A DNA stretch of 64,000 bases, taken from positions 24,666-88,665 of the forward strand of contig JBIPDF010000002.1 of assembly GCA_044006015.1 (NCBI GenBank), written 5' to 3'. The position numbers were made by a program, and so were the translations under genes. Under the pieces are notes generated by a model. It worked only from the letters and a program-made list of their open reading frames with translations, was not told the origin of the DNA and made no database searches. Each line of letters starts with the position of its first letter. Position 1 is the first letter of the stretch. The DNA comes from Heteroscytonema crispum UTEX LB 1556 (lineage in GTDB: Bacteria; Cyanobacteriota; Cyanobacteriia; Cyanobacteriales; Nostocaceae). Positions 1,152 to 56,948 of the stretch are shown here, piece after piece.

Positions 1152-1228
1152 ATATAGCAGTCCGCGCAATTTAGAAACCGGGTTTCTGGACACCGTGAAC
1201 TTTGACGCTCTGATATAGAATTGCTATA
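1152..1228. mobile_element. MITE-like element, family A copy (TIR atatagca(a/g)tcc ... gaattgctata)
   Basis: Shares its core gaaaccgggtttctggacaccgtgaactttcac and terminal inverted repeats with copies at 38019-38125 and 56538-56640, and with an inverted partial copy near 30845-30950. Confidence 0.5.
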
Positions 1229-1508: not shown

Positions 1509-4202
1509 ATGCTTGCTTCAGATGTGGCTATGAGTAGTACCTACGACTTACGTCTTGTAGGGCTTTCAATATTGATTGCAGTCCTTGCTTCATATACCGC
1601 ACTTGATTTAGCAGGGCGGGTAACGGCATCTAAGGGATGGGCTAGACTTGCTTGGTTGTTTGGCGGCGCGATCGTGATGGGAATCGGTATCTGGGCGATG
1701 TATTTTGTGGCGATGCTGGCTTTCAGTCTGCCGATACCGATCGCCTATGATATGTTGACCGTGTTGCTGTCAATGCTGCCTGCGATTATCGCCTCTGGCA
1801 GCGCACTTCTTCTCGCCAGTCGCCGATTTTTGAGCATGGGGCAATTGCTAATTGGCGGTATTTTAATGGGTATTGGTATCGCGTCGATGCATTACATTGG
1901 CATGAACGCGATTCAAATTGAAGCCACCATTGAATATAATCCGTTACTGTTTGGGCTTTCTGTGGCGATCGCTATTTGCGCGTCGATTGCAGCGCTGTGG
2001 ATTGCTTTCCAACTCGGTACCCAAAGCAGCGCCACTGTGGAGTGGTCTAAAATTGTCAGCGCGATTGTCATGGGAGGCGCGATCGCTGGGATGCATTACA
2101 CGGGAATGGCGGCGGTTCGCTTCACGCCCACTAACCCAAAAGCAATATCTGCATCAGAGACAGTAAACGATTCCTTAAACTGGCTGGCTGTTTCTATCGG
2201 TATTGCAACCTTTGTAATTTTAGGTTTCGCGCTGATTACAGCGTTTATCGATCGCCGTTTAACCGACCAAGCAAAGCTTTTAGAATTGCAAGAAGCCGAA
2301 GCCAAACGTTCGCAACTATTTACAGATATTACCTTACGAATTCGGCGATCGCTCAAATTGGAGGATGTTTTAAATACAACCGTCCACGAAGTTCGCCAAG
2401 CATTGAAAGCAGACCGTGTAGTTATCTATCGCTTCAATCCTGACTGGACTGGTACTATCATCGCCGAGTCAGTAGCACCAAATTGGATGCAAACCAAAGG
2501 GAGAACAATTAATGACCCTTTTCGAGAAGATTACATCCAAATATACGCTCAAGGGCGAGTCAAAGCTACCAACAATATTTATAAAGCCGGTTTTACAACT
2601 TGCCATAGAGAGATTTTAGAAGGCTTGCAAATTAAGGCAAATTTGGTTGCCCCAATTGTCAATAACAATCAACTTGTCAGCTTATTATGTGCCCATCAAT
2701 GCTCTAAACCTCGATATTGGCAGAAAACTGAAATTGAATTAGTCAAACAGTTAGCAATTCAAGTTGGTATTGCCTTAGAACAAGCAAGTTTGCTGAGAGA
2801 ATTTCAGGAAGCACAGAAAGTTTTGCGGCTTCGCGATCGCGCGATCGCAGCAGCGAGTAATGCCATCATCATTACCGATCCGCGTTTACCAGACAACCCG
2901 ATCATTTTTTGCAATCCTGCTTTTGAAACAATTACAGGCTATTTACCAGAAGAAGCCATTGGGCGTAACTGTCGATTTCTGCAAGGGAAAGATACAGATC
3001 CAGCCACCCTGCATAAATTACGCAGTGCAATTCGCGATGGACATGAATGTCAAGTTGTAATTAAGAATTACCGCAAAGATGGCAATTTTTTCTGGACAGA
3101 ATTAACGATTTCTCCAGTGCGAGACGCCTTTGGACAAGTAATAAATTATATTGGCGTGCAATCTGATATTACCTTACGCAAGCAGGCGGAAGAAGAATTA
3201 AAGCGCAGTCAAGAAGCCCTGCAAAGCCAGTTGCTAAAGCTGCTGACAGACGTGAAAGAAGCATCCGGCAATTTAGCTGCGGGTGAAATTTCAACCAGTG
3301 AAATTGGGGTAGTAGCTGATGTTTTTAATACCATCATCCAGAACTTGCGGCAAATAGCTACTCAAGTCAAAACAACTGCTTATCAAGTGAATGTTTCCCT
3401 TGAGGAAAACTCGAGTGCGATCGCGCAATTGGCGGATGAAGCACTCAAACATGGCGAAGAGATTAGCCACGCCCTTGAGGAAATGGATAAAATGAATCTC
3501 TCAATTCAAATTGTGGCAGATAGCGCCCGCCAAGCCGCAGAAGTCGCCAATACTACCTCAAACACAGCACAGGCGGCTGGATTTGCTATTGATAACACTG
3601 TCAGCAGTATCTTGAATTTGCAACGGACAATTACAGAAAAAGCGAACAAAGTCAAGCGTTTGGGCGAATCTTCTCAAAAAATTTCCTATGTTGTGTCATT
3701 GATTGGGCAAATTGCCTTGCAAACCAACTTATTAGCCATCAACGCCAAGATAGAGGCTGTGGGAGTGGGTAAAGAAGGTAGAGGTTTGGCGATCGTAGCG
3801 GAACAAATTGCTAAATTAGCAGAACAATCTATCGAAGCAACCAAAGAAATTCAAGAAATGTTGGAAAACATCGAATTAGAAACTAGCGAAGTGGTGAAAG
3901 CCATACAGCTAGGAACAATCGAATTAGTGGAAGGAGTAAATTTTGTCCAAGATGCCAAGTATAACTTAGAGCAAATTTTAGAAGTATCTTGTCAAATTGA
4001 CAATTTAGTGCATTCAATTTCGACAGCAACAGCATGTCAAACACAAACTTATCACGCGATCGCACTACAGATGAAAGAGATAGCGTCTGCTTCTCAAAGC
4101 ACAGCAGATTCGTCGCGCATGGTGTCTAACTCCCTGCAGCAAACCCAACAAGTAGCACAACAATTGCAAGCCTCTGTAGGTATATTTAATACTGGCAGTT
4201 AG
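1509..4202 (+). CDS. Multi-sensor methyl-accepting chemotaxis protein: MHYT membrane domain + phytochrome-class GAF + LOV + HAMP-like + MCP signalling domain
   Basis: 897-aa ORF. The N-terminus has six predicted TM segments carrying MYFVAM, MHYIGM and MHYTGM (MHYT repeats). The GAF has [18 protein letters not shown] and [21 protein letters not shown], the Cys-His plus LVxPI signature of bilin-binding GAFs. The LOV core reads [13 protein letters not shown]...[18 protein letters not shown]...IGVQSDIT. The C-terminus has [34 protein letters not shown], the highly conserved MCP signalling block. Confidence 0.85.
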
Positions 4203-4205
4203 AGA

Positions 4206-4488
4206 GGGCAATGGGCAATGGGCAATGGGCAATGGGCAATGGGCAATGGGCAATGGGCAAGGTAAATAAATTAGTTTTTATAATTCCCAATGTTTAATTC
4301 CCAATGTTTAATTTCCAATGTTTAATTTCCAATGTTTAATTCCCAATGCCCAATTCCCATTGCCCAATTCCCATTGCCCAATGCCCAATTCCCAATTCCC
4401 ATTGCCCAATTCCCATTGCCCAATGCCCAATCCCCAATTCCCAATTCCCAATGCCCGATGCCCAATGCCCAATGCCCAATACCCAATG
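4206..4488. repeat. STRR array: 8 direct GGGCAAT heptamers followed by a ~220 bp block of complementary-type heptamers (CCCAATG/CCCAATT/CCCATTG); potential long imperfect hairpin
   Basis: Read directly from the sequence. It lies exactly between the stop of the + strand receptor gene (4202) and the stop of recN on the - strand (4490). ORFs 4065..4253 and 4318..4626 are translations of the repeat. Confidence 0.9.
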
Positions 4489-4489
4489 A

Positions 4490-6238
4490 CTATTCAACTT
4501 GTTGTCGGTGATTCGCGGCTTGATTTAACAACGATTCGGCAAATGCGATCGCTTCTTGGGCTGACTTTCCACCTGCTAATTGCGCTAGTTCGTCCCGCCG
4601 TGTGGTTAAATTCTCTAATGCCGTAACTCGCACTACGGTTCGCTCTTCGCTGTTACCATTGTTCTCTTTTTTACCTTTGAATTGATTGATTGTTTGCTTA
4701 TCTACCCTAAAATGGCGGTCTGCCATTGCTGCTACTAAGGGTTGGTGTGTAACACACAATACCTGTTGCTGTTGGCTGAGTTGGTGTAATTTTTCGGCGA
4801 TCGCTTGGGCGACTCTCCCGGAAACGCCAACGTCAATTTCATCAAATACCATTGTCCCCGCTGCGTCTGCTTGGTAAAAACAAGCTTTCAACGCTAGCAA
4901 AAAGCGACTCATTTCTCCACCCGAAGCAATTTCTGTTAAAGGTTGCATTGGTTCCCCTGGATTGGGGCTAAACATAAAAGTAATTTTGTCTGCACCTGCA
5001 GCGGTTGGCAATGTCGGTACAATTTCCACTTGAAATTGGACTTTTTCCATCGCTAGGGGCTTGAGTTCTGCAATCAATCGTGCTTCTAAATTTGCAGCAG
5101 TTTTTTGACGCAATTTTGTTAACTGGTTGCAAGCTTGGGTAAGTTTTTCCAAAGACGCTTTTTCTTGCTGTTCCAGACTTTCAATAGATAGTTCGCTGTC
5201 GTTAAGTTCGGTTAATTCCCCTTGGATGCGCTGGTAATAAGCGATCGCTTCTTGTAATGTCGGACCATATTTGCGACAAATTTGCTTTAATTCCCGAATC
5301 CGTTCTTCTACCTCTTCCAAACGCTGCGGATCGGCTTCTAAAGCTTCCCCATAAGCATTAATTTGCCTCGCCACTTCCACGATTGTGGCTTGGGCATCCC
5401 GCACCAAGTCCAACATCGGCTGCAACTGGGTATCATATTCTACCATATCAGTTAATGTCGCCTCGCTGTCTCCCAGCAAGTCAGCAGCGGCTGCGGCTTC
5501 ATTATCATTTTGATACAAAGCCTGATAGATTTTGTAACTCATCTGTTGCAATTCAACCACATGATTGAGACGCTGGCGTTCTTGTTCTAGCAATTCCAAT
5601 TCATTCGGTTCGTTGAGATTTGCGCCTCCCAACTCCTGCACTTGATAAGTTAATAAATCAAATTGTTGCAAACGTTCCCGTTCCGAAGTCCGGCGTTTTT
5701 CTAAAACCAGATGTGCTTGTTGATAAGCACTAAAAGCAGTAGCGATGAATTGACGCTTTTGCAGCTGCGAATCACCGCCGTAAACATCCAACCAATCGCG
5801 GACTTGTGCAGACTGTCCCACCAATACAGTTTGACCTTGGGCGGTAATTTCCACCAAGCGATCGCGCAAACCGTTCATCAACTGTCGATTTACCAACACG
5901 CCATTTACACGCGAACGGCTGCGGATATTACTGACAGTAGCGGTAATTTCGCGACTGATGACTGCGGAATTATCATCAATTAAATCAATTTCCTGTTCGG
6001 TCAACCAAGCAGCTAAGGAACGGTTAATAGTGAACGTAGCTTCCACCATAGCGCGACTCGTCCCCGTGCGAATCACGCGACTAGAGACTTTACCACCCAA
6101 AGCCGCATCAATCGCATCCAGGATAATCGACTTACCCGCACCGGTTTCCCCTGTCAAGACATTCAGTCCAGCACCAAATTCTAATTCTAGCTGGTCAATG
6201 AGGGCAAAATTTTCAATTCGCAGGCAGAGCAACATCAA
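4490..6238 (-). CDS. recN: DNA repair protein RecN
   Basis: [49 protein letters not shown] at the N-terminus (Walker A), a long coiled-coil middle, and a C-terminal [13 protein letters not shown] signature typical of RecN/SMC-like proteins. Confidence 0.9.
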
Positions 6239-6429
6239 ACAAAATTCTCCGTTAAGGCAGACGCCGGATAGTTACAACTTCAAAGACACTAGAGATAACG
6301 AATGAGCAAAGTTCAATACCAACTACCATTGAAAAAACTGAGGAGTCGAAATTGAGTGTAACAAACCTAGTTTAGTTTGGCTGCGATAACCATTGGTAAA
6401 GGCGATAGCTTTCTTAATTTAGAACAAAG

Positions 6430-6600
6430 TTAGTGGTTGGTGGTGAAGCGCGTACTGCGGTCGGGTTTCCCTCCTAGTACTGGTTCTCCCGAAGGGTCGT
6501 TGGTTGGTGGTTGGTGGTGAAGCGCGTACTGCGGTCGGGTTTCCCTCCTAGTACTGGTTCTCCCGAAGGGTCGTTGGTTGGTGGTTGGTGGTGAAGCGCG
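6430..6600. repeat. Tandem repeat, unit ~68 bp, about 2.4 copies (ggttggtggtgaagcgcgtactgcggtcgggtttccctcctagtactggttctcccgaagggtcgtt)
   Basis: Direct repetition is visible at 6430-6499, 6500-6569 and 6570-6600. The reverse complement of the unit recurs in degenerate form at 51110-51410. Confidence 0.8.
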
Positions 6601-6780: not shown

Positions 6781-8817
6781 GTGGCAATCTTCATGAATGT
6801 TAAGACAGTTCCTCCTACTTCCCAGCTGATTCAGACTGAAGTAGTGCCAGCAAACGGTGCGCTACTTAAGGATGTCAAATTACCAGAACTTGTGGACAAC
6901 CACAGACCCAAAGTCTTGGTGACTGTAGCCGAACCAGAAATAGGCTACGATCCACAAGCGATCGCAGCGCAATACAAAAGGACACCGTTGCAGGTTTTGC
7001 GGCGCATTTTCGCAGTTTTGGCACCTACCCTAAACTTTGCTTTTGGGGTGTGGTGGGATAGCAAGCGGGGAGTTGTCGTTAAAAATGACCGCCGCCGTGC
7101 AATTCACCTGCGAGAGTTGCTGACAAAGTTGGGACCAGCCTACATTAAAATTGGACAGGCTTTGTCTACCAGACCTGATTTAGTTCCTCCGATGTATTTA
7201 GAGGAATTAACTCAACTGCAAGATAAATTACCGCCCTTTGCCAACGAACTCGCTTACCAGTTTATCGAAGAAGAACTCGGTCAGCGTCCGGAAGAAGTTT
7301 ACGCCGAACTTTCGCCCCAGCCAATTGCTGCAGCATCTTTGGGACAAGTATACAAAGGCAAGTTGAAAACTGGTGAAGAAGTCGCCGTGAAAGTGCAACG
7401 TCCCGACTTGCGAGAAAAAATCACTATCGACTTGTATATATTACGCAAGTTGGCAGCATGGGCGCAGAAAAACTTCAAACGGGTGCGCAGTGACTTAGTA
7501 GGTATTTTAGATGAATTAGGCGATCGCATCTTTGAAGAGATGGACTACATCCACGAAGGGCAGAACGCTGAAAGATTTTTCCAACTTTACGGTCATATAA
7601 AAGACATATATGTACCGAAAATTTACTGGGAATATACCAACCGTCGCGTATTGACGATGGAGTGGATAAACGGCAAAAAGTTAACCCAGATAGAAGAACT
7701 GAGCGCCGAAGGGATAAACGCCCGTTATTTAGTAGAAGTAGGCGTCCAGTGTTCATTGCGACAGTTATTAGAACATGGATTTTTCCATGCAGACCCCCAT
7801 CCAGGGAACTTGTTAGCCACAACCGATGGCAAATTAGCCTATCTCGACTTTGGGATGATGAGCGAAATTCAACCGCCCCAGAGATATGGTTTAATAGAAG
7901 CGATCGTTCATGTCGTCAACCGCGATTTTGAAGGTTTAGCAAAAGATTACGTCAAGTTAGATTTCTTATCACCAGAGACAGATTTAACACCAATAATTCC
8001 GGCTTTCGCGAGAGTATTTGCCGACGCTCAAGGAGCCAGCGTTGCCGACTTGAACATTAAAACCATCACCGATGAACTATCGGCATTAATGTATGAATAT
8101 CCCTTCCGCGTACCACCTTATTACGCATTAATTATACGTTCTTTGGTGACATTAGAAGGCATAGCCATCTATATAGATCCTAAATTCAAAGTTCTCAGCG
8201 AAGCATATCCTTACGTAGCCAAACGCTTATTAACCGACCCAGCCCCAGAATTAAGAACATCCTTGCGCGACTTGCTATTTAAAGATGGTACATTCCGCTG
8301 GAATCGTCTGGAAAACTTGTTAAAAAATGCGCGTAACAATCAAGAATACGACCTCAATTTAGTAGTAAATCAAACCGTTGAATTTCTCTCTTCAGAAAGA
8401 GGCGCATTAATTCGCAATAACCTAGTTGATGAAATAGTCAGAGGACTTGATGCATTAACTAAAAATGCCTTGCATAGCTTTACATACCTGCTGCGAGAAA
8501 GAGTGGGTATGACAGCAGTCAACGAAACTCCCGCCGCCACAGTCGAACAACAACAAACCCTAGAACATATTAAACGTATCGTAGGAATTCTTCGAGAAAC
8601 TCGTGGCTTTGATGCATCACAACTTGCGCCCCAAATTGCCCAGTTATTCTTCAACCCAGGCGTACAGCGTTTGGGACAGCAAATTGCCAGTCAGTTAGCC
8701 CAAAAAGCAGTAGCAAGGCTAATTCGGGAATTATTGGTATCAGAAGAAGAGCAGAATTTGAGTCAACCTACACCACCAAACCAGCCCGTAAGATTATCTT
8801 TACCAGCAAGAGTGTAG
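6781..8817 (+). CDS. ABC1/AarF/UbiB-family atypical protein kinase
   Basis: LGPAYIKIGQALSTRPDLVPPMYLEELTQLQDKLPPF is the ABC1-family signature. Also seen are VAVKVQRP and HADPHPGN blocks. The ~680-aa length fits cyanobacterial ABC1 kinases. Confidence 0.85.
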   Translation: MAIFMNVKTVPPTSQLIQTEVVPANGALLKDVKLPELVDNHRPKVLVTVAEPEIGYDPQAIAAQYKRTPLQVLRRIFAVLAPTLNFAFGVWWDSKRGVVVKNDRRRAIHLRELLTKLGPAYIKIGQALSTRPDLVPPMYLEELTQLQDKLPPFANELAYQFIEEELGQRPEEVYAELSPQPIAAASLGQVYKGKLKTGEEVAVKVQRPDLREKITIDLYILRKLAAWAQKNFKRVRSDLVGILDELGDRIFEEMDYIHEGQNAERFFQLYGHIKDIYVPKIYWEYTNRRVLTMEWINGKKLTQIEELSAEGINARYLVEVGVQCSLRQLLEHGFFHADPHPGNLLATTDGKLAYLDFGMMSEIQPPQRYGLIEAIVHVVNRDFEGLAKDYVKLDFLSPETDLTPIIPAFARVFADAQGASVADLNIKTITDELSALMYEYPFRVPPYYALIIRSLVTLEGIAIYIDPKFKVLSEAYPYVAKRLLTDPAPELRTSLRDLLFKDGTFRWNRLENLLKNARNNQEYDLNLVVNQTVEFLSSERGALIRNNLVDEIVRGLDALTKNALHSFTYLLRERVGMTAVNETPAATVEQQQTLEHIKRIVGILRETRGFDASQLAPQIAQLFFNPGVQRLGQQIASQLAQKAVARLIRELLVSEEEQNLSQPTPPNQPVRLSLPARV

Positions 8818-13085: not shown

Positions 13086-13350
13086 TTTGCTCTCCTATTG
13101 GGAAATATAAATTTTTACGCTTCACATATTATTTTTATCTAAGTGTTTATACGGTTATCTAACTGTTAAATTGTAATGTGTGTAATAATCAAGACTAATT
13201 GTCAAGTGTATTTTCTTTAGATTTATATAGAAACCGTTCTTCTCTTCGTTTGTGCCCTTTGTGGTTCGTTACATCAACATTACTTTTACAAATTATTTAG
13301 GAATCCCATAGCATCCACTTGTATTCAGCAATAACCATAACCATGGTAGA

Positions 13351-14337: not shown

Positions 14338-14410
14338 TGGAGCTAAGCGGATTCGAACCGCTGACCCCCTCAATGCCATTGAGGTGCTCTACCAACTGAG
14401 CTATAACCCC
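14338..14410 (-). tRNA. tRNA-Ala (anticodon GGC)
   Basis: The reverse complement GGGGTTATAGCTCAGTTGGTAGAGCACCTCAATGGCATTGAGGGGGTCAGCGGTTCGAATCCGCTTAGCTCCA folds as a cloverleaf. It has a 7-bp acceptor stem with the G3:U70 Ala identity pair, discriminator A73, anticodon loop AT-GGC-AT, and a T-loop GGTTCGAATCC. CCA is not encoded. Confidence 0.9.
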
Positions 14411-15847: not shown

Positions 15848-16966
15848 TTGATAGCAGCAATTATGGCGATAATTTCCTCAAAAAAACAGCCTCAAGAACC
15901 CAGCAAAGAACCCAAGCAGCGCCGGGAGTCTCCCCCAAAACCACCTTCTGGGGAAAACCTTTTACAAGCTGAAGCTGCTGTTGATGAACAAGATAAGCAG
16001 GAAGAAAGTATTCGACCGCAGCGATTTGAGGATTATATTGGGCAAAAAGATTTAAAGGATGTACTCTCAATCGCCATCTCTGCAGCCAAGTCTCGCGGTG
16101 AAGTCCTGGATCACTTGCTGCTGTACGGTCCTCCCGGTTTGGGCAAGACCACAATGGCAATGATTTTAGCATCTGAAATGGGCGTTAACTTCAAAATTAC
16201 CAGTGCGCCAGCCCTAGAACGTCCGCGTGATATTGTCGGGTTGCTGGTGAATTTGAAGCCGGGAGATATTTTATTTATTGATGAGATTCATCGCTTATCA
16301 CGAATGACAGAAGAAATCCTCTATCCGGCGATGGAAGATTATCGTTTAGATATTACAGTTGGCAAAGGTTCCAGCGCTCGCATTCGGAGTTTGCCGCTGT
16401 CTAAGTATACTTTGGTGGGAGCTACAACCCGCGCCGGTGCTTTGACTTCACCATTACGCGATCGCTTTGGTTTAATTCAAAAACTGCGATTTTACGAAGT
16501 TAACGAACTCAGCCAAATTGTATTGCGAACCGCCCAGTTACTCCAAACTCCCATTGCCGAAGATGGTGCTGCAGAAATTGCCCGTCGGGCGCGAGGAACG
16601 CCACGCATAGCAAACAGGCTACTTAAAAGAGTGCGTGATTATGCGGAGGTAAAAAAGTCGGGGGAGATTACTGAAGTTGCTGCATCTGAAGCATTGCAGC
16701 TATTTCAAGTAGACCCTTGTGGCTTGGATTGGACAGACCGCAAAATGTTGAGTGTAATAATTGAACATTTTAATGGCGGTCCCGTGGGATTGGAAACCAT
16801 AGCGGCGGCGACGGGAGAAGATACGCAAACGATAGAAGAAGTGTATGAACCATATCTCATGCAAATAGGCTATTTAAGTCGGACTCCGCGCGGTCGGGTA
16901 GCGACACCTGCAGCTTACAAGCATATGGGTTTTAAGCCGCCTAACGAGCAGTTGTCATTGTTGTAA
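15848..16966 (+). CDS. ruvB: Holliday junction branch-migration ATPase RuvB
   Basis: [24 protein letters not shown] (Walker A), [10 protein letters not shown] (Walker B), and a C-terminal winged-helix region. The N-terminal extension may begin at a later Met. Confidence 0.9.
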
Positions 16967-16983
16967 TCAGGAAGAGGAGAGGG

Positions 16984-17180
16984 GGCAATGGGCAATGGGC
17001 AATGGGCAATGGGCAATGGGCAATGGGCAATGGGCAATGGGCAATGGGCAATGGGGCAGAAGGAATGAACTGCCTACCTCACTTCACTACCCATGAAAAT
17101 CCGTCTTTCCCATCCCTAATACCCAATGCCCCATGCCCGATGCCCAATGCCCAATGCCCGATGCCCAATGCCCAATGCCT
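16984..17180. repeat. Inverted pair of STRR arrays: GGGCAAT x~10, then CCCAATG/CCCGATG heptamers after a ~65 bp spacer
   Basis: Read directly. It lies between the ruvB stop (16966) and the start of the TPR gene (17228). ORF 17002..17184 is a repeat translation. Confidence 0.9.
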
Positions 17181-23802: not shown

Positions 23803-24289
23803 AATTTTTATTTCATTCCAAATTGTCAGTCCAAATTAAATTTTGATTTTTGATAATTCCAAGTCCTCAGAAACCCGGTTTCTTTAAGAAACCGGGTTTC
23901 TTTGTTCTCGCTTTGTTTTGACTCTGTTCTGAAAAATTATTTAGTAGTGTTATATATGCTCAAATATTAATTGCTAACCTAACAAGAGTCATTAACAGCA
24001 TAAATGTTGCGATCGCCTAACGTCTCCATCTGCAGAGGTGAGTTTTTTCTCCATCTACAGAGAGAAAATCTCCACAAGGATTTGAGATTTGAGATTTGAG
24101 ATTTTGAGGACAGTTGCACAGTTCGGGTTTCCCGACAGTAGCAAACTGTCCGGGATTTTGGATTGTGAAACCGTCAAAGCGCGGTACTGGGTATTGGAAA
24201 TTCCCACGGTTGATACCGGGGGCTTGAAACAAGGGCGGGAACTGGATTTTCCCAGTACCCAGTCCCCTTTTCGCTAAATCCTGACTTTA

Positions 24290-26510: not shown

Positions 26511-27350
26511 ATGACAGGGAAAATAGATCTACCATATTTTGACGATTTATTAGAAAGTTTCCGCCAAGGGAACACCGAAGTGATTAAAAGCTTTGGTCTT
26601 CACGTACATTGGGGCTACTGGGAAAATCCCGCAAAGGCTGACGGTTCCATAGATGACTTTGTGGCTTCAGCAGAAAATTTAGCGCAACGAGTATGCAATG
26701 CAGGTGGCGCAGGGAATGGACTCTCGATTCTTGATTGTGGTTGTGGTTTTGGTGGGACGATCGCCCTTTTAAGCGATCGCTTTTCTGATATGCAGTTAGT
26801 AGGCTTAAATATTGACCCCCGTCAACTAGCTAGGGCTAGAGAACAAGTTAAACCTCGCAATAATAATTCCATTGAATTTGTTGAAGCAGATGCTTGTCAG
26901 CTACCATTTGCCGATAATTCTTTTGACGTTGTTATGGCTGTTGAGTGCATTTTCCATTTTCCCAGCCGCCAGCGCTTTTTCCAAGAAGCATGGCGAGTGC
27001 TGAAGCCAGGTGGAAAACTTGCCATCTGCGACTTTGTACCCTTAGAAATTTTGAGTCCTTTCTTAAAACTTGCGGCTACTTTACTGCAACCCTTTGTTGG
27101 TAACACTTACGGTTCTGTTGATAGTAGTTTTACCCTAGCTTCTTATCGCCATCTGGCACAAACTACAGGATTTAAATCAATCTTAGAAGAAGATATCACT
27201 GTCAACACTCTACCAACTTATCCGGTGTTGCGGCGACTTCAGCGTCAGGGGGGAAACCCACAATCAGAAACCTCAACAGCTGTTACTGAATGGATTAGTC
27301 GTTTGGGGTTAATGCGTTATTTGATTTTGTCCTACAGCAAGAATAATTAA
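26511..27350 (+). CDS. Class I SAM-dependent methyltransferase
   Basis: LDCGCGFGGTIALL (motif I, GxGxG), then acidic motif II and motif III regions. 279 aa. Confidence 0.75.
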   Translation: MTGKIDLPYFDDLLESFRQGNTEVIKSFGLHVHWGYWENPAKADGSIDDFVASAENLAQRVCNAGGAGNGLSILDCGCGFGGTIALLSDRFSDMQLVGLNIDPRQLARAREQVKPRNNNSIEFVEADACQLPFADNSFDVVMAVECIFHFPSRQRFFQEAWRVLKPGGKLAICDFVPLEILSPFLKLAATLLQPFVGNTYGSVDSSFTLASYRHLAQTTGFKSILEEDITVNTLPTYPVLRRLQRQGGNPQSETSTAVTEWISRLGLMRYLILSYSKNN

Positions 27351-27354
27351 AAAA

Positions 27355-27478
27355 GGGGCAAGGGGCAATGGGCAATGGGCAATGGGCAATGGGCAAAGAG
27401 TGCTGTGAAATAACAAACAGGTTCTTCTCTATACCCAATGCCCAATGCCCGATGCCCGATGCCCAATGCCCGATGCCC
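27355..27478. repeat. Inverted pair of STRR arrays (GGGCAAT x5 ... CCCAATG/CCCGATG x6) between convergent genes
   Basis: Read directly. It is flanked by the stops at 27350 (+) and 27481 (-). Confidence 0.9.
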
Positions 27479-30548: not shown

Positions 30549-30844
30549 TCATACCCTTCCCTTTCTCTCCTTTCTCTTCCTCTGCGTTTTCTCTCTTGAA
30601 AAGGTCTGATGCCTTCTCTTCGCTCTTGCTTCGCCTTTCTTGTATGCCGCAAGGCTATACGGCAACCCCTTCTCTTAACGGAGGAAACCGACCCTCAGAC
30701 TTTTCGCTGCTTCCTAGTAAGGTTAATTAATTTTACAAATTTTATCTAATTGTTATAGCATTGACTTCAGCCCCGACTTAAAAGTCGGGCGCTTAAGCGT
30801 TCAAGGCGTTGAAATAGGTTAAAATCCTGTGAAAATTGCAACCT

Positions 30845-30950
30845 CTAGAAACTCGGTTTCGCAGAAGAAACCGGGTTTCTCAACTTTCACCTGGGATGCG
30901 CGGAATGCTATAGAAACGCGAGAAACATCACGTCTCTATATTTTGTAAAC
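30845..30950. mobile_element. Partial/inverted MITE family A-related copy
   Basis: Contains gaaactcggtttc ... gaaaccgggtttctcaactttcac and gcgcggaatgctataga (the reverse of the family A TIR), plus a gtctctata hairpin half. Confidence 0.35.
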
Positions 30951-30959
30951 TATTAATTG

Positions 30960-33062
30960 TTACTTATCCCCAGGAAAATCAACAACTACAGGCAAATTAC
31001 CATTTTGTTGAGCGACTTTTGGGATAGTAACCGATGGTTTTGCCTGCATAGGTGGCGTTGCATCACCTGACTTAGCAGTTTGATTCCATAAAATCATCGA
31101 AAGCAACCCATCCACCAAACCACCAGTACCGCCAGAACCCCCAACTAAAACATCTGGGATGAGACGGACATTGCGATCGCCGATAATTTGCATCATCTGC
31201 ATCGCTGTATATCCTTGTTCTCCCAAGGCTTCCACACCAGCGCGATAGGTTTCAGCTTTTGCATTACCAATCGCCCGGATACCTTCAGCTTCACCAACAG
31301 CTTGCAAGCGAGTCGCTTCAGCTTGACCGGTCGCCTGTTTAATTTGCGCCTGCGCTTTCAAATCAGCCATTTTCACACTTTGTTCCGAAGTCACCATTTC
31401 TCGCTGAATATCCGCCAGCGAAGTTTCCCGGACAAGTTGTTGTCTTTGGGTTTGCGCCAATTCTTGAACTTGATAAGTCTTGCGTTGTTCCTCAGCAATT
31501 TTCCGGTCTGTCTGGGTTTGCATCAACGTTGCAGGCGGTTGAATATCCCCAATTAACGTATCAATTGCCTGTACATCATAACTGCGTAAGGCTATCTTAA
31601 TATACTCAGCAGCCTCCGTTTGCCGTTCGCTGCGGGCAGTCAAAAAGTCAAGCACCGTATAGTCTTGAGCCGAGTTACGGAAGTAATTACCGATGGTAGG
31701 CTCTAATACATGGTCTACCAAATTCTGCATCGAACCAACGCGAGAAATCACCTTTGGTGCATCCAACGCGCCGACATGAATAATTTGCGCTACTTCCAAA
31801 TCAAAGGCAAACCCATCTTGAGAACGCACCGTCAAAGAGCCTAATTTTGCATCATAATTATGACGTTCGGTGCGAACCGACCAATTTAAAACTATGTTGG
31901 TCGTGGGCACCAACTCAATCTTCATAATGCGGCTGTTAATCGGGTGTTTACCGGGATACAACGGTTCCACCCACACGCCCTTATGTCCGGGATTAACTAA
32001 ATTACCGTGAGTGAAAGCTGCACCGCTAACATCTTGGTGCGCCTTACCCACATAAGAAATCACCACACCCACGTAACCGATAGGAATTTCCGTCATCGGT
32101 ACAGGTTCAACCTGAACAAGCCAAGGATTGAGATTCCAAGAACCAGATAACAAAGTTTGTTCTTGCAAACCCCGGCGTCCACCACCATCAATGAATTTCT
32201 GACCGCTTTGGAAATTGTCGTGTCCGCCAATTACCGGACCTGCCATTTCACCTGCAGGAATTGGCAAACCATCCAAGGTGGTGACAATACCAACTTTATC
32301 AGCCGCAAGACTATACACCCGCAACTGTTCCGGACTCATGCCATGTTGGTTGGCATTTGACGACATAATTACTTTAAACAGGGCGGTGTTGATGCGGTAA
32401 GTACCTGCTGTCAGAAAACCTATTTGCCGACCTTTTTCGCCACCGTTGGTGAGGAATTTTCGCGCATCTTGGAAATTGTCGCATTCTACAACTTTACCCA
32501 AAATGCGTTCTGGCGGGTTGGATGCACCATCTGCGGCGACAATCAGGGCGATTTCATTTTGGGGTACAACAATTACCGGCTCTTTTTTCACCGAATATTG
32601 CCAAGCCCAATAACCCCAGTGCCAACCAGGTACTAGAGTATCAGCTTGCAAGCCAGCTTCGCCGTTCATCGCAATCAACCGTCCGGGAGGAAGTCCGCGT
32701 CCGGAAATGGCAAATTTTTTCACCACAATGCCGACTTCTCGTTCCCCAATAACCACCAGTCCGCCTAAGAACAGGGGTACAAATATCACTAACCCGCCAA
32801 CAATAACGATGGGGATAAGTCCCCACGGTTCCACCTGTGTTGGTATTTGGGCAATTGTTGTCTTTGTCTGATTTAATTGAACTGATACTGGCGCGATTTG
32901 TTTTACAGTCGCTGTTTTCACCGGAGTCGCACTAGCAGAATGAATGCTACCAGCCAGTGCCAAAGTTGCTATAAAAGATGTTGCAAAACGAAGTATTTTA
33001 TTTGACTTACTTTTACTGAAAAAGTCTTGACCGCTTTTCATAACCTGTGCCGCTTTGGGCAA
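30960..33062 (-). CDS. Flotillin-like SPFH/band-7 family membrane protein
   Basis: N-terminal TM, then an SPFH region (GLPPGRLIAMNGEAGLQADTLVPGWH...VPQNEIALIVAADG). The C-terminus has a long Ala/Glu/Gln-rich coiled coil typical of flotillins. Confidence 0.8.
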   Translation of the reverse strand: MPKAAQVMKSGQDFFSKSKSNKILRFATSFIATLALAGSIHSASATPVKTATVKQIAPVSVQLNQTKTTIAQIPTQVEPWGLIPIVIVGGLVIFVPLFLGGLVVIGEREVGIVVKKFAISGRGLPPGRLIAMNGEAGLQADTLVPGWHWGYWAWQYSVKKEPVIVVPQNEIALIVAADGASNPPERILGKVVECDNFQDARKFLTNGGEKGRQIGFLTAGTYRINTALFKVIMSSNANQHGMSPEQLRVYSLAADKVGIVTTLDGLPIPAGEMAGPVIGGHDNFQSGQKFIDGGGRRGLQEQTLLSGSWNLNPWLVQVEPVPMTEIPIGYVGVVISYVGKAHQDVSGAAFTHGNLVNPGHKGVWVEPLYPGKHPINSRIMKIELVPTTNIVLNWSVRTERHNYDAKLGSLTVRSQDGFAFDLEVAQIIHVGALDAPKVISRVGSMQNLVDHVLEPTIGNYFRNSAQDYTVLDFLTARSERQTEAAEYIKIALRSYDVQAIDTLIGDIQPPATLMQTQTDRKIAEEQRKTYQVQELAQTQRQQLVRETSLADIQREMVTSEQSVKMADLKAQAQIKQATGQAEATRLQAVGEAEGIRAIGNAKAETYRAGVEALGEQGYTAMQMMQIIGDRNVRLIPDVLVGGSGGTGGLVDGLLSMILWNQTAKSGDATPPMQAKPSVTIPKVAQQNGNLPVVVDFPGDK

Positions 33063-36001: not shown

Positions 36002-36384
36002 TAGTTTGGCAAGTCAAAATTGCCGAGTGAGGACTGGGAAAGGGGCAGGTGGGGCCCCCAGGGAGTGGGGATAAGGGGCAAGGGGGAAGGGGAAAGGGGA
36101 AAATATTAAACCGCAAAGTTTGCTTGTCAGACCGTTAGTAGTGCGTCAAGGTAATGCATGAGAATTTCTTCACAAGTTTCTCAAATTATTTGCGTATAAC
36201 TAAAAGTGTAGGGCGGGAAATCGCCAGCTACGCCAGATAGCACCTGCTACATCACCCAGTCAGATATTGTCTTTATTAGGACTTACGCAAAGCTCACGGC
36301 AATAAAGCGAGGAGTGAAAATCCACGCCGCTGTCTTGAATGCTGCGCTTGCGAGGTTTCCTCACAACACTTTTTGAGCTTTAAG

Positions 36385-37165: not shown

Positions 37166-37702
37166 ATGACAACTAACAAAATTTTGGTTGCCCTTGACCG
37201 TTCATCGCAAGCATTAGTGGTATTTGAGCAAGCACTAGATATAGCTCAAAAACAAGGAAGTGAGTTGATATTATTTCATAGCATTCACTCGCAGTTAGAG
37301 GGCGAGGCTATCCAGTATGTTGGTACTATTGCAGATGTAGATATGTACGGTACTTTGCATAAACTATATCGCGATCGCCTGCAAAAAGAAATTGATAGCG
37401 TTCAAAGTTGGTTGCAGGAATACGTCCAAAAAGCAAATGCACGGATGATTCCTGTAGAAGTTATCCACGAATTTGGCGAACCAGGTAAAAAAATTTGTAA
37501 TTTAGCAAAATCATGGGGTGCAGATTTAATAGTTATCGGTCGCAGAGGTCACAAAGGAATTTCAGAAGTTTTGTTGGGTAGTGTTAGCAATTACGTACTG
37601 CATCATGCGCCTTGTTCGGTGTTGGTAATTCAAGGTCAACATACCGCCAATACTGGGATGCGAGTTGAAGAAGCGATGAGTACAACACATACAACACAAT
37701 AG
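37166..37702 (+). CDS. Universal stress protein (UspA family)
   Basis: KILVALDRS...LILFHS...ADLIVIGRRGHKGISEVLLGSVSNYVLHHAPCSVLVI, the canonical Usp ATP-binding C-terminal motif. Confidence 0.85.
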   Translation: MTTNKILVALDRSSQALVVFEQALDIAQKQGSELILFHSIHSQLEGEAIQYVGTIADVDMYGTLHKLYRDRLQKEIDSVQSWLQEYVQKANARMIPVEVIHEFGEPGKKICNLAKSWGADLIVIGRRGHKGISEVLLGSVSNYVLHHAPCSVLVIQGQHTANTGMRVEEAMSTTHTTQ

Positions 37703-38018
37703 ACTTGCCACTTATAAATCAAAACGTGGCGATTTGTCGGTGGGGAGGATTTATGTTTAACCGTGTTCCTCCTCACAAGTTCCTCAAATTCTTGCAATAT
37801 GTATAAAAGTGAGAGTAAGAAAGAAGAAAAGCAACAATTCTTAAATTCTCCATTTGGTGTAGGCGATGTGACATTTTGCGGTTAGCCAGACCAGACCGTA
37901 AAGATTCCTAATTCTTTGATTTTGCCTTACCCTCCTATTGCTCTCAAAACTTAAAAATTTTACATTTGGCATAGCTATCCATACATAGTATGTACTTATT
38001 TTGAAGTAGAAGTACATA

Positions 38019-38125
38019 CTATAGCAATCCGCGCATCATTCATGAAAATTTAGAAACCCGGTTCTCCGAGAAACCGGGTTTCTGGACACCGTAAACTTTC
38101 ACAAATCATATAGGATTGCTATAGC
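38019..38125. mobile_element. MITE-like element, family A, best-preserved copy (TIR ctatagcaatcc / ggattgctatag)
   Basis: Terminal inverted repeats of 12 bp flank tagaaacccggttctccgagaaaccgggtttctggacaccgtaaactttcac. It is preceded by a separate hairpin atagtatgtact...agtacatactat (37987-38022). Confidence 0.6.
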
Positions 38126-38245
38126 TTGCTTCGCTGTAGAGGTGAGAAGGAGAGAAAATCAAAGTTTTTCTTTTACGAAGAAAAATTTACCTCCAGAGGT
38201 CTGCGTGTGGTCTATTTATTTGAAAATCTGTAACACTAAAACAAC

Positions 38246-38572
38246 CTAAAGAAGCTTTTGAACAGCGCTACTAAATTGCTCGTAAGGAGAAACTCCCACA
38301 ATAGTTTCTAGTAACTCAGTATTCTTGAAAATTAAAACCGCCGGAATGCTGCGAAGACCAAATTTTTTGAAAATTGGTTTGTTGTTGTCGATGTCTACCT
38401 TAACGACTTTAACGCGACCTTTGTATTCTTCAGCGAGTTGATCCATTAGCGGACTGATAAGGCGGCACGGACCACACCAAGTAGCAGTAAAATCTACAAC
38501 AACAACTTCTTCTGCACTTAAAAGAGTATCAAATTCACTTTCTTGGACGTAAGCAACGGTTTCAGGGGACAT
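38246..38572 (-). CDS. trxA: Thioredoxin
   Basis: WCGPCR active site; 108 aa; typical thioredoxin fold sequence (VVVDFTATWCGPCRLISP...KVDIDNN). Confidence 0.9.
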   Translation of the reverse strand: MSPETVAYVQESEFDTLLSAEEVVVVDFTATWCGPCRLISPLMDQLAEEYKGRVKVVKVDIDNNKPIFKKFGLRSIPAVLIFKNTELLETIVGVSPYEQFSSAVQKLL

Positions 38573-52781: not shown

Positions 52782-53915
52782 TTATGCCTCTTGATTATTT
52801 ATCCTACTTATTTGGGTTCGGGAAAAATCAGTAGCCTTGGTGATGCGAATTCCTGTTGGGATAATGTATGCCACTTCCGGATAAAATTGCATCGGTGATT
52901 TTTCTGGTGCCCTAGCTACGGCGTCTGCTATCCGTAACTGGGTTGGTTCCATTTGCAATGCCATTATTAGACAATCAGTTTTGCCCCCTGCACCGGCGTG
53001 AGCAATTCCACGCAAACGACCCCAAACTAGAATATCTCCATCTGCGATTACGATACCACCTGGGTTTACATCTCCCAAGATAATTACAGTACCGGGATGG
53101 CGAATTTCTAATCCCGAACGTACTGTCATTTCGAGATAGAGGGCGTCTGCTAGGGGTGTGGGGGCGGTGGTAGATGCGGAACTCAAACTGGGTTCTTGCT
53201 GTAGTTGTTCTACAGAATACCCGGCTGAGACGGCTGCGATCGCGGTTTGGCGACGGCTGGTAGAAACTGATTTTAACTGGAGTTGGATTTCTCTCAAAGT
53301 TTCGGCAATTTCTTGTAACTGTCTGCCATCCAACAGGCGATCGCGTGCGATTAAATGTACCGTTGTGTTGGGTACAAAAAAGCGATCGCCTGCCAATAAT
53401 CGCAGTTTCATTTGTTGCCAAATCTCAGATAAACCGTATTCTGAGGCTGGTACTTGCGATTCTGTTGGTAATATTAATAACAGCTTTCCATCTTCACTTT
53501 TAATCTGAACTTGGATATTCGGATTCACCGCTTTTTCTGGTGGCGGCGTCTCGGTATCATCTCCACCCCATAGTATATAATTCGACTCTATATTATCCAG
53601 TGTTTCCGGATTTGAAGATGTAGAATTTGACTCTATATTATCCAGTGATTCCGAATTTGAATATGTAGAATGTGACTCGACATTCTGAAATGATTCAGGA
53701 TTTGAATGTAAAAATTGCAGGACAGAATCGACCTCTGTGTCGGGGAGAATAGAATTTGACTCGACATCATAAACAACAGAATTTGATTCTGCTACCTCAG
53801 AAACAGCAGAATTTGATTCTGCTGCATCAGAACCAGCAGAATTTGACTTCTTATCGGGGATAGCAGAATCGTAAGTCATGCAACACCAGCCAAAAGAACC
53901 GAAAACAGCAAGCAA
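52782..53915 (-). CDS. minC: Septum formation inhibitor MinC with a long repetitive N-terminal extension
   Basis: C-terminal beta-helix domain GTVIILGDVNPGGIVIADGDILVWGRLRGIAHAGAGG. The N-terminal ~110 aa are an ESNS/DNIESN-rich low-complexity stretch encoded by nucleotide tandem repeats (53560-53880). The true start is uncertain. Confidence 0.8.
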   Translation of the reverse strand: MLAVFGSFGWCCMTYDSAIPDKKSNSAGSDAAESNSAVSEVAESNSVVYDVESNSILPDTEVDSVLQFLHSNPESFQNVESHSTYSNSESLDNIESNSTSSNPETLDNIESNYILWGGDDTETPPPEKAVNPNIQVQIKSEDGKLLLILPTESQVPASEYGLSEIWQQMKLRLLAGDRFFVPNTTVHLIARDRLLDGRQLQEIAETLREIQLQLKSVSTSRRQTAIAAVSAGYSVEQLQQEPSLSSASTTAPTPLADALYLEMTVRSGLEIRHPGTVIILGDVNPGGIVIADGDILVWGRLRGIAHAGAGGKTDCLIMALQMEPTQLRIADAVARAPEKSPMQFYPEVAYIIPTGIRITKATDFSRTQISRINNQEA

Positions 53916-56537: not shown

Positions 56538-56640
56538 ATATAGCAATCCGCGCATCATTCGCTTCGCTCACGAGAAGTCGGGTTCATCAAAGAAGTTACC
56601 CGACTTGTGAGACTTTCTATTTCCGGACTTACGCAACAAA
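56538..56640. mobile_element. MITE family A variant copy, abutting a family B partial copy (56624-56677)
   Basis: atatagcaatccgcgcatcatt 5' end identical to the 38019 copy. An internal hairpin ctcacgagaagtcgggt...acccgacttgtgag then runs into ggacttacgcaa + gtagcggtaattcatgaattaccgctac. Confidence 0.45.
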
Positions 56641-56948
56641 ACTCTGTTCGTAGCGGTAATTCATGAATTACCGCTACGACAAATCAGGCTTTTGAGACAA
56701 TGAAAGTCTAAGTCCGATATTTTTCACAAATCTTCCTTTGGATTGCTATGGTAGCCGCTCAACTCTATCTTCAGCTAGATTTTATATTAACTGGCGAAGT
56801 GGAAGATGACAAAATTGTTGGCGATTTAAAATTTAATCTGGAAAGTGGAATCGCCGTTGTGTAGGAAATATTGCTCCAATTAATCTCGTGGGGTGTGGGG
56901 AGGGGCGTCTCGCCTAACCCCACTTTCTTCAATACTCTAACAGGATTA

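What the first reader, a model, noticed from the sequence alone, without database searches (positions are those of the whole stretch)
38019..38125. MITE-like family A: ~105-bp elements with 12-bp terminal inverted repeats, at least four copies in the window
The copy at 38019-38125 has TIRs ctatagcaatcc/ggattgctatag around a core containing the self-complementary gaaacccggtttc (twice) and ggacaccgtaaactttcac. Related copies lie at 1152-1228 and 56538-56640 (the latter fused to a family B fragment), with an inverted partial copy at 30845-30950. Isolated gaaacccggtttc palindromes also occur at 23862-23895. All copies are intergenic. Such miniature inverted-repeat elements can carry promoters or terminators and mark recent genome mobility.
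Basis: seen in the sequence. Interest (0 to 1): 0.5.

Follow-up and report, generated by a model that had tools for sequence, protein, structure and literature searches.

The report
TA-inserting cyanobacterial miniature transposon family
The ~100-bp repeats are real miniature, non-coding transposons that insert at TA dinucleotides; they occur in many filamentous cyanobacteria and are an ordinary kind of selfish DNA, notable only for a swappable hairpin at their centre.

Summary
The window (a Nostocales-type cyanobacterium) has four complete family-A elements: 1153-1228, 30754-30912, 38020-38123 and 56539-56750. It also has one decayed copy (~13226-13310) and one solo core palindrome (23869-23901). 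The shared ends recur far above chance.

The MITE reading is supported. Two independent filled/empty site comparisons in relatives show a 2-bp TA target-site duplication around an element that runs TAGCAATCC...GGATTGCTA. The inverted repeat extends to about 30 bp. Flanking bases show a symmetric M-TA-K preference. No element has an ORF.

The same ends bound 76-350-bp elements in Trichodesmium, Okeania, Dapis, Scytonema, Calothrix, Brasilonema and Nostoc. TA duplication plus ~30-bp inverted repeats points to mobilisation in trans by an IS630/Tc1-mariner-type transposase. That step is inferred: no parent element was found in about 2 Mb of fetched DNA.

The "core" palindrome AGAAACCSGGTTTCT is a separate dispersed repeat. 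It sits at a fixed central position of the backbone and is replaced by other hairpin modules in other copies.

No evidence of recent movement in this strain. Ordinary biology: a new member of a known kind.

The parts
38020..38123 (+). Family-A copy A, 104 bp including both TA duplications (element proper 38022-38121). Left end TATAGCAATCC-GCGCA-TCATTCATGAAAATTT. Central hairpin module AGAAACCCGGTTCT-CCG-AGAAACCGGGTTTCT (38052-38083). Right end GGACACCGTAAACTTTCACAAATCATATAGGATTGCTATA. Lies between the convergent genes USP (37166-37702, +) and thioredoxin (38246-38572, -).
1153..1228 (+). Family-A copy B, 76 bp. Same backbone with a single 15-nt palindrome unit (1173-1187) and a shortened left sub-terminal region. 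78% identical to copy A over aligned columns. Lies upstream of the MHYT-GAF-PAS-MCP gene 1509-4202.
30754..30912 (-). Family-A copy D, 159-bp composite. The GCGCA-type end is at 30897-30912 (read on the - strand) and the degenerate other end TATAGCATTGA is at 30754-30764. It contains the AGAAAC.CGGTTTC hairpin pair (30847-30880) and a second hairpin GCCCCGACTTAAAAGTCGGGC. Lies 47 nt downstream of the Band7/SPFH gene (30960-33062, -) and upstream of the Ser/Thr-kinase-WD40 gene.
56539..56750 (+). Family-A copy C, 212-bp composite. Intact left end (56539-56561) and right end TTTTTCACAAATCTTCCTTTGGATTGCTATG. The centre is replaced by an AGTCGGG-type hairpin and a nested family-B element (~56621-56700).
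13226..13310 (+). Decayed family-A copy. Left end TATAGAAACCG; right end TTTTACAAATTATTTAGGAATCCCATA (5 mismatches to the 27-nt end consensus).
   Evidence: (D12)
23869..23901 (.). Solo hairpin module AGAAACCCGGTTTCT-TTA-AGAAACCGGGTTTCT with no family-A backbone. It belongs to the independent 15-nt palindrome repeat family.
37700..37701 (.). Unoccupied TA target, inside the USP stop codon TAG. The corresponding site in the ~87%-identical relative L121 carries a family-A insertion flanked by TA on both sides.

Best explanation
Family A is a non-autonomous DNA transposon (MITE). Each copy is a 70-210-bp non-coding segment. It is bounded by inverted repeats of about 30 bp (TAGCAATCC, then GCGCA or TAAAT, then CATTTGTGAAAA) and flanked by a duplicated TA.

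It most likely moves by cut-and-paste. A DDE transposase supplied in trans would bind the two ends and insert the element into a TA dinucleotide, preferably within M-TA-K. This is how IS630/Tc1-mariner elements work.

The centre of the backbone holds a 15-35-nt perfect hairpin module. That module is itself a separate dispersed repeat and differs between copies that share the same backbone.

In this window the copies are old, diverged, intergenic passengers. Any effect on neighbouring genes, such as termination or ORF extension, is incidental.

Shown: repeat family, TIRs, TA duplication, filled/empty sites, no coding capacity, wide distribution, module exchange. Inferred: the transposase family, cut-and-paste chemistry and how the modules are exchanged. 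The confidence of 0.85 is for 'TA-duplicating MITE'; the IS630-type assignment alone I would put at about 0.6.
For: 1. Recurrence. Ends and core are far above chance in the window. An HMM of ends built only from other genomes recovers the window ends.

2. Family in other genomes. A scan with the 16-nt left end found over 117 stretches. About two thirds are filamentous cyanobacteria. In 60 cases the unqueried right end GGATTGCTATA lies 76-350 nt downstream.

3. Target-site duplication, clean case. L157 is filled...ctgacaaa-TA-[TAGGAATCC...GGATTGCTA]-TA-tgactattatg. L152, L151 and L167 are empty...ctgagaaa-TA-tgactattatg.

4. Target-site duplication, second case. The window is empty at ACAACACAA-TA-GACTTG. 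L121 is filled with TA on both sides.

5. Target preference. In 70 elements the base before the element is A 31 / C 29 / G 5 / T 4 and the base after is T 33 / G 29 / A 4 / C 3. No longer direct repeat exists.

6. Mechanistic precedent. [quoted passage not shown]

7. Modular centre. The backbone is shared between window copy A and the copy on Nostoc sp. UHCC 0926 plasmid pn1, but their hairpin modules differ. Six stem pairs change on both sides while pairing is kept.

8. No RNA family match. Rfam gives nothing at gathering threshold or at E<=1.
Against: No autonomous element with these ends was found.
- No TIR pair spaced 0.6-3.5 kb encloses a transposase. The enclosed ORFs look like host genes (GNAT-like, ABC-transporter and histidine-kinase-like), judged by eye from their translations and not searched against any family library.
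- No YSP(D/E)LNPIE-type IS630 signature occurs in six-frame translations of about 2 Mb of fetched DNA.

The IS630 assignment rests on the 2-bp TA duplication alone. From memory, some IS5-family subgroups also make 2-4-bp duplications.

Only two filled/empty cases were found, and one (L121) has a homologous flank on one side only.

Some adjacent elements abut as GGATTGC-TATA-GCAATCC without an intervening extra TA. That needs insertion into a neighbour's terminal TA to fit the model.

There is no evidence of current activity. The two window copies that could be compared (A and D) are unchanged on short contigs from other read sets or assemblies, which I take to be the same or nearly the same strain.

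The apparent cross-order conservation of the end is partly ascertainment, because I searched with that exact 16-mer.
Confidence: 0.85

Rival explanations
1. The elements are genes or signals for a structured RNA (an sRNA, an RNase III substrate or an intrinsic terminator). They would be kept because the long hairpin works at the RNA level, and mobility would be secondary or absent.
For: - Very stable predicted hairpins (z -6.8 and -7.8).
- Compensatory changes in the central stem.
- Copy A has a terminator-like hairpin plus T-rich tail on the thioredoxin strand.
- Other bacterial MITEs have RNA-level effects (PMC2229807).
Against: - Insertion polymorphism with TA duplication.
- Copies occur in both orientations and in unrelated gene contexts.
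- The TIR pairs never vary, so they say nothing about RNA pairing.
- The central hairpin is exchanged wholesale, not tuned.
- The terminator-like feature is absent from the other copies.
- No Rfam match.
- The family is at chance level in 939 kb from relatives. That suits selfish DNA better than a conserved RNA gene.
Confidence: 0.05
2. The backbone is not moved by a DDE transposase. It spreads by whatever process spreads the very small hairpin repeats of Nostoc (the SDR-type elements of Elhai et al. 2008, recalled from memory), for example hairpin-templated copying or recombination. On this view the TA flanks are part of the element.
For: - The central modules are independent dispersed repeats: 57 of 68 palindrome units lie outside family A, some in arrays.
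- Modules are exchanged at a fixed position.
- No parent IS was found.
- Some neighbouring elements share TATA junctions.
Against: - The symmetric ~30-bp TIR, the 2-bp ambiguity at both junctions of the filled sites and the M-TA-K preference are the standard footprint of TA-targeting DDE transposition (PMC2170065).
- Modules alone do not carry the TIRs.
Confidence: 0.07
3. The elements are REP/REPIN-like or IS200/IS605-type palindrome-associated elements, mobilised by a Y1 (HUH) transposase as single-stranded hairpins and inserted next to a specific short sequence without duplication.
For: - Strong hairpin potential as single strands.
- TnpB-like ORFs occur in two fetched loci, one about 300 nt from a copy.
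- The 2-bp junction ambiguity cannot formally exclude insertion next to TA without duplication.
Against: - Long symmetric terminal inverted repeats with identical TA on both sides.
- No GTAG/CGTC-type REP signature.
- The TnpB neighbour is seen once and lies 4 kb away in the other locus.
- There is no asymmetric left/right sub-terminal hairpin architecture.
Confidence: 0.03

Closest known systems
RUP (repeat unit of pneumococcus) and its proposed mobiliser IS630-Spn1
   Same: About 107-bp non-coding element with TIRs, insertion at TA, intergenic, stop codons in all frames, thought to be moved in trans by an IS630-family transposase (PMC2229807).
   Different: RUP's TIRs match a known IS in the same genome. 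No matching IS was found here. The organisms and sequences differ. RUP copies are highly similar to one another, whereas the window copies are diverged (78%) and carry swappable central modules.
Correia / NEMIS elements of Neisseria
   Same: About 24-bp TIR, 5'-TA-3' at the termini with target duplication, long stem-loop transcripts, no identified parent transposase, and size classes that differ by an internal block (~107 vs ~155 bp) (PMC2229807).
   Different: No IHF site or RNase III processing has been shown here. The internal variation here is replacement by unrelated perfect hairpins, not presence or absence of one 50-bp block. The family is spread across several cyanobacterial orders, not one genus.
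ISY100 (ISTcSa) and other IS630/Tc1-mariner elements of cyanobacteria
   Same: TA target and TA duplication. TIRs of about 24-30 bp suffice in cis. Mini-elements with 30 bp per end transpose (PMC2170065).
   Different: Those are autonomous ~1-kb elements that encode transposase. Family A encodes nothing. Sequence identity between the TIRs could not be tested.
Cyanobacterial MITEs already reported (Nezha in Anabaena/Nostoc; MITEs of Anabaena sp. 90 and PCC 7120; Microcystis MITEs)
   Same: Same hosts, same size range (77-541 bp), intergenic bias, occasional ORF disruption or fusion, and some families with no IS sharing their inverted repeats (the 'type II' MITEs of Anabaena sp. 90) (PMC3184786, PMC3542288).
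   Different: I could not obtain their sequences, so identity with family A is untested. The accessible literature holds no match to TATAGCAATCC, GGATTGCTATA or GAAACCGGGTTTC in a cyanobacterial context.
Small dispersed repeats (SDR) of Nostoc punctiforme (Elhai et al. 2008, Genome Res 18:1484; paper not held, recalled from memory)
   Same: 21-27-nt hairpin-forming repeats, nested in larger repeats and replacing one another in a conserved context. This matches the behaviour of the central modules here.
   Different: This applies to the core module only, not to the TIR backbone. Sequence identity with the published SDR families could not be checked.

Membership tests
MITE (generic definition) | Small size (<~500 bp) and no coding capacity | tested here: met
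   Elements are 76-212 bp in the window and 76-350 bp elsewhere. Only spurious read-through ORFs overlap them.
MITE (generic definition) | Terminal inverted repeats shared by all copies | tested here: met
   Positions 1-11 (TATAGCAATCC) are 88-100% conserved at both ends of 70 elements, and similarity continues to about 30 nt.
MITE (generic definition) | Target-site duplication shown by filled versus empty sites | tested here: met
   A 2-bp TA duplication is seen in L157 versus L152/L151/L167 and in L121 versus the window USP stop codon.
MITE (generic definition) | Multiple dispersed copies per genome | tested here: met
   The window has 4 complete copies and 1 decayed copy in 64 kb. The truncated scan returned many loci per genome for the Trichodesmium, Dapis and Okeania assemblies (13 for Trichodesmium sp. 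MAG_R02) and 3 for Calothrix sp. NIES-4105. One of the contigs of the presumed source strain breaks inside copy A in each of two read sets. The whole-genome count was not obtainable.
IS630/Tc1-mariner-dependent MITE | Insertion into TA with TA duplication | tested here: met
   The symmetric M-TA-K flank preference includes CTAG, the preferred IS630 target according to the reference list of PMC2170065.
IS630/Tc1-mariner-dependent MITE | TIRs match those of an IS630-family element encoding a DDE transposase in the same or a related genome | tested here: inconclusive
   No such element occurs in the window or in about 2 Mb of fetched loci.
IS630/Tc1-mariner-dependent MITE | Transposase binds the ends and moves the element | not testable with these tools
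   Needs biochemistry or genetics.
REP / REPIN (RAYT-mobilised) | 20-40-nt GC-rich palindromes with a GTAG/CGTC tag, no TSD, associated RAYT gene | tested here: not met
   The elements are AT-rich, have ~30-bp TIRs plus a TA duplication, and show no such tag. No RAYT-type gene was noticed, but the ORFs of the fetched loci were only inspected by eye and not searched for one.
Rfam RNA families | Match to a curated covariance model | tested here: not met
   No match over the whole window at gathering score except one tRNA at 14338-14410. No match at E<=1 over 37900-38250.
SDR-type very small hairpin repeats (core module only) | About 15-35-nt perfect hairpin units, dispersed on their own and nested at fixed positions in larger repeats | tested here: met
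   57 of 68 AGAAACCSGGTTTCT units lie outside family A. They also occur solo and in arrays. Modules are exchanged within the same backbone. Identity with the published SDR families was not tested because the paper is not held.

The most novel reading that the evidence does not exclude
The backbone may be a standard TA-targeting MITE that serves as a fixed landing pad for a second, much smaller class of mobile hairpin modules (15-35 nt). These modules replace one another at exactly the same central position while keeping perfect arm complementarity, by an unknown hairpin-directed mechanism.

Separately, the same ~30-bp ends occur from Nostocales to Trichodesmium. This could reflect a single, still unidentified, widely conserved (possibly host-resident) transposase, rather than many independent IS parents.
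Probability: 0.2. Interest if true: 0.5.

Novelty: new member of a known kind. Interest (0 to 1): 0.25.

Why it matters
MITEs are routine in cyanobacterial genomes, so this does not change understanding. The practical value is limited:

1. The family breaks short-read assemblies. Contigs of the presumed source strain end inside copy A.
2. It can alter gene ends. In a relative it replaces the stop codon of a universal-stress-protein gene and extends the ORF by about 20 codons.
3. It marks intergenic regions that turn over completely between related genomes.
4. Its ends give a simple TA-flanked signature for annotating copies across filamentous cyanobacteria.

The exchange of central hairpin modules within one backbone is the only feature that might repay further study. 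Something like it was, as far as I recall, already reported for Nostoc SDR elements.

Tried and rejected
1. Literature search for the element's sequence strings found only unrelated primers and oligos. The key papers are not held: Elhai 2008 and Wolk 2010 could not be retrieved, and Nezha (Zhou 2008) is a subscription paper known here only through citations. Identity with named cyanobacterial MITEs or SDRs could not be tested. A search for ISNpu3 found only two citing papers and no sequence or family information.

2. Search for an autonomous parent:
- TIR pairs 0.6-3.5 kb apart enclose ORFs that look like host genes, judged by eye and not family-searched.
- The 1.6-kb interval in L104 is non-coding junk.
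- Multi-copy ORF clustering gave only what look like host gene families and TnpB-like ORFs.
- No IS630 catalytic signature appears in six-frame translations.
- 40 kb around one plasmid copy holds no transposase.

3. Phage carriage. The viral-contig scan gave 24 hits. None has the family's architecture, and they look like chance matches inside non-cyanobacterial coding sequence.

4. Insertion polymorphism in the presumed source strain. The two copies checked (A and D) are identical on short contigs from other read sets or assemblies.

5. Empty sites for the window's own copies. The orthologous intergenic regions in 65-88% relatives are completely different or rearranged, and each carries other repeats, so no base-level empty site could be aligned.

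6. Plasmid collection BLAST found only 2 and 6 records with partial or full copies, none annotated.

7. A longer TSD or a TATA duplication is rejected. The empty sites contain only TA, and there are no direct repeats outside TATA.

8. A general terminator role is rejected as a family property. Only one copy, on one strand, fits.

Full report
**What is in the window**

The window comes from a Nostocales-type cyanobacterium. It has HIP1 octamers and heptamer arrays, and its proteins are closest to Brasilonema, Scytonema and Nostoc at about 60-65% identity. One metagenomic relative reaches 80%.

At the reported site the sequence reads c-TATAGCAATCC...GGATTGCTATA-g. It lies between a universal-stress-protein gene on the + strand and a thioredoxin gene on the - strand. 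It folds into one long hairpin on either strand (z -6.8 and -7.8).

A single perfect 12-nt inverted repeat is not remarkable, since it occurs about 0.6 times per shuffled window. The recurrence of the same ends is:
- TATAGCAATCC with <=1 mismatch: 7 hits against 1.16 expected.
- The 16-mer left end with <=3 mismatches: 5 hits against 0.46 expected.
- The core palindrome with <=1 mismatch: 11 hits against 0.05 expected.

An HMM of ends built only from other genomes recovers the window ends.

**Corrected inventory**

| Copy | Coordinates | Size | Notes |
|---|---|---|---|
| A | 38020-38123 | 104 bp | includes both TA duplications |
| B | 1153-1228 | 76 bp | single palindrome unit |
| D | 30754-30912 | 159 bp | - strand composite |
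| C | 56539-56750 | 212 bp | composite with a nested family-B element |
| decayed | ~13226-13310 | ~85 bp | degenerate ends |
| solo module | 23869-23901 | 33 bp | no backbone |

**The family elsewhere**

By my own estimate a 16-mer should give several hundred chance hits in 596 Gb, and the GC-rich non-cyanobacterial hits are that.

About two thirds of the listed loci are filamentous cyanobacteria: Trichodesmium, Okeania, Dapis, Microcoleaceae, Scytonema, Brasilonema, Calothrix, Stigonema, Hassallia, Chroococcidiopsis and Nostocaceae. In 60 of them the unqueried right end GGATTGCTATA (<=1 mismatch) lies 76-350 nt downstream, with a mode of 138-140 nt in the Oscillatoriales.

The distribution is patchy. 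In 939 kb from 80 metagenomic relatives of the window organism, the ends occur at chance level (16 seen; I estimate about 15 expected by chance). None of the 24 viral-contig hits has the family's architecture.

**Anatomy**

Both ends share TATAGCAATCC (positions 1-11, 88-100% conserved). Next comes either GCGCA or TAAAT, then cATTtGTGAAAA. The inverted repeat is therefore about 30 nt, not 12.

The centre holds a perfect hairpin module. Its identity differs between copies with the same backbone. Window copy A and the copy on Nostoc sp. UHCC 0926 plasmid pn1 share ...ATGAAAAtT[module]GGACACCG.AA.TTTCACAAATCA.ATAGGA.TGCTATA. They carry AGAAACCCGGTTCTCCGAGAAACCGGGTTTCT and AGATACCCGACAACTTTTATGAAGTCGGGTATCT respectively.

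Other copies carry:
- GATCCCCGACTTCTTAAAGAAGTCGGGGATC;
- chimeric arms such as AGAAGTCGGGTTTCT / AGAAACCCGACTTCT in L121;
- heptamer repeats (Oscillatoriales).

Six stem pairs change on both sides while pairing is kept.

57 of its 68 occurrences in fetched loci lie outside family-A elements, some in arrays or bounding other mini-elements.

**Mobility**

Two independent filled/empty comparisons were found.

1. L157 carries an element at ...ctgacaaa-TA-[TAGGAATCC...GGATTGCTA]-TA-tgactattatg. Three homologous contigs (L152, L151, L167) read ...ctgagaaa-TA-tgactattatg, with both flanks aligned at 82-94%.

2. In L121 (about 87% nucleotide identity in genes) an element sits exactly on the stop codon of the USP gene. 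The window reads ACAACACAA-TA-GACTTG. L121 reads ACAACACAA-TA-[element]-TA-GACTTG. The L121 ORF runs about 20 codons into the element. Only the gene-side flank is clearly homologous in this case.

Both cases give a 2-bp TA duplication and exclude a TATA or longer duplication.

Across 70 elements the flanking bases are A/C before (60 of 69) and T/G after (62 of 69). This is a symmetric M-TA-K preference with no longer direct repeat.

**Mechanism**

TA-specific insertion with TA duplication, plus TIRs of 24-30 bp that suffice in cis, is the documented behaviour of IS630/Tc1-mariner elements. These include the cyanobacterial ISY100, where mini-elements with 30 bp per end transpose as well as the full element (PMC2170065). 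The most likely mechanism is therefore cut-and-paste mobilisation in trans by such a transposase.

This step is inferred. No element with these ends encodes a transposase in the window or in about 2 Mb of fetched DNA. Whole host genomes could not be searched. From memory, some IS5-family subgroups also make 2-4-bp duplications, so the transposase family is not settled.

How the central modules are exchanged is unknown.

**Function for the host**

Nothing indicates a selected role.
- Rfam has no match.
- Only copy A has a terminator-like hairpin with a T-rich tail, and only on the thioredoxin strand.
- Copies occur in both orientations and in unrelated contexts.
- The orthologous intergenic regions in relatives are completely different and carry other repeats.

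**Recency**

Window copies A and B are 78% identical. By contrast, three copies in one MAG are 90-92% identical to one another. Copies A and D are identical on short contigs from two Logan read sets (SRR31418077, SRR31418076) and, for copy A, one ENA assembly (ERZ1392009). I take these to be the same or nearly the same strain. In both Logan read sets the contig breaks inside copy A. Recent movement in this genome is not shown.

**Comparison with known elements**

The closest analogues by mechanism are:
- RUP of pneumococcus: 107 bp, TA target, IS630-Spn1 proposed as mobiliser.
- Correia/NEMIS of Neisseria: 24-bp TIR, TA termini, no known parent, size classes differing by an internal block (PMC2229807).

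Cyanobacterial MITEs are well documented, including Nezha, the Anabaena sp. 90 and PCC 7120 MITEs, and the Microcystis MITEs. Some families have no IS sharing their inverted repeats (PMC3184786, PMC3542288). The module behaviour matches what I recall of the Nostoc SDR elements (Elhai 2008).

**Verdict**

This is a real, ordinary MITE family and a new member of a known kind.

Noticed in passing
TGCGTAAGTCCTG with <=2 mismatches gives 9 hits against 0.97 expected. The same motif lies next to family-A copies in Trichodesmium and other loci (L047, L086, L091, L104), so this family is also widespread.
   Followed up: partly
window 37986-38021: A 12-bp-stem hairpin, TAGTATGTACTT-N12-AAGTACATACTA, abuts copy A. 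Its last two bases are the duplicated target TA, so the element inserted at the foot of a pre-existing palindrome.
   Followed up: no
L121 6668-9512 compared with window 37703-38245: In the ~87%-identical relative, a PEPCK gene and a 135-aa gene lie between thioredoxin and USP. They are absent from the window, where copy A occupies the shortened interval. This is an indel or rearrangement next to the MITE.
   Followed up: partly
L121 9474-9578: A family-A insertion in the stop codon of the USP gene extends the ORF from 178 to 195 aa, with the tail encoded by the element.
   Followed up: yes
window 4201-4510, 16950-17180, 27323-27470: There are long heptamer arrays (GGGCAAT)n and complementary (CCCAATK)n arrays. 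They form 50-90-nt inverted repeats within and between loci. These are the G-rich Nostoc-type heptamer repeats.
   Followed up: no
window 6429-6576 and 53576-53710: There is a 74-nt tandem duplication (99% identical). There is also a 45-nt x3 tandem repeat inside ORF 52782-53915.
   Followed up: no
L159 1637-1959; L121 4986-5108; L074 3168-3563: The 15-nt palindrome AGAAACCSGGTTTCT forms regular arrays (86-nt period x4 in L159; 55-nt period in L121) and bounds other ~65-nt mini-elements. It behaves as a building block of several repeat types.
   Followed up: partly
window 36164-36193, 37767-37796; L121 ~6915-6945: The motif CCTCACAAGTT(T/C)CTCA(A/C)ATT recurs in intergenic DNA of the window and of the relative. 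Its meaning is unknown.
   Followed up: no
L123 12120-12300; L124/L126 downstream of the Band7 gene: The orthologous Band7-to-kinase intergenic spacer is filled by different repeats in each relative. L123, for example, has two copies of a ~75-nt GGCAAGCCCCCTAAATCGAACATAATTGGGGGACTTTGAAT unit. This spacer is a hot spot for repeat turnover.
   Followed up: no
L060 4122-5508: A TnpB-like ORF ends about 300 nt upstream of the family-A copy in Scytonema sp. HK-05. A homologue in L117 is 4 kb from its copy, so the proximity is probably coincidental.
   Followed up: partly
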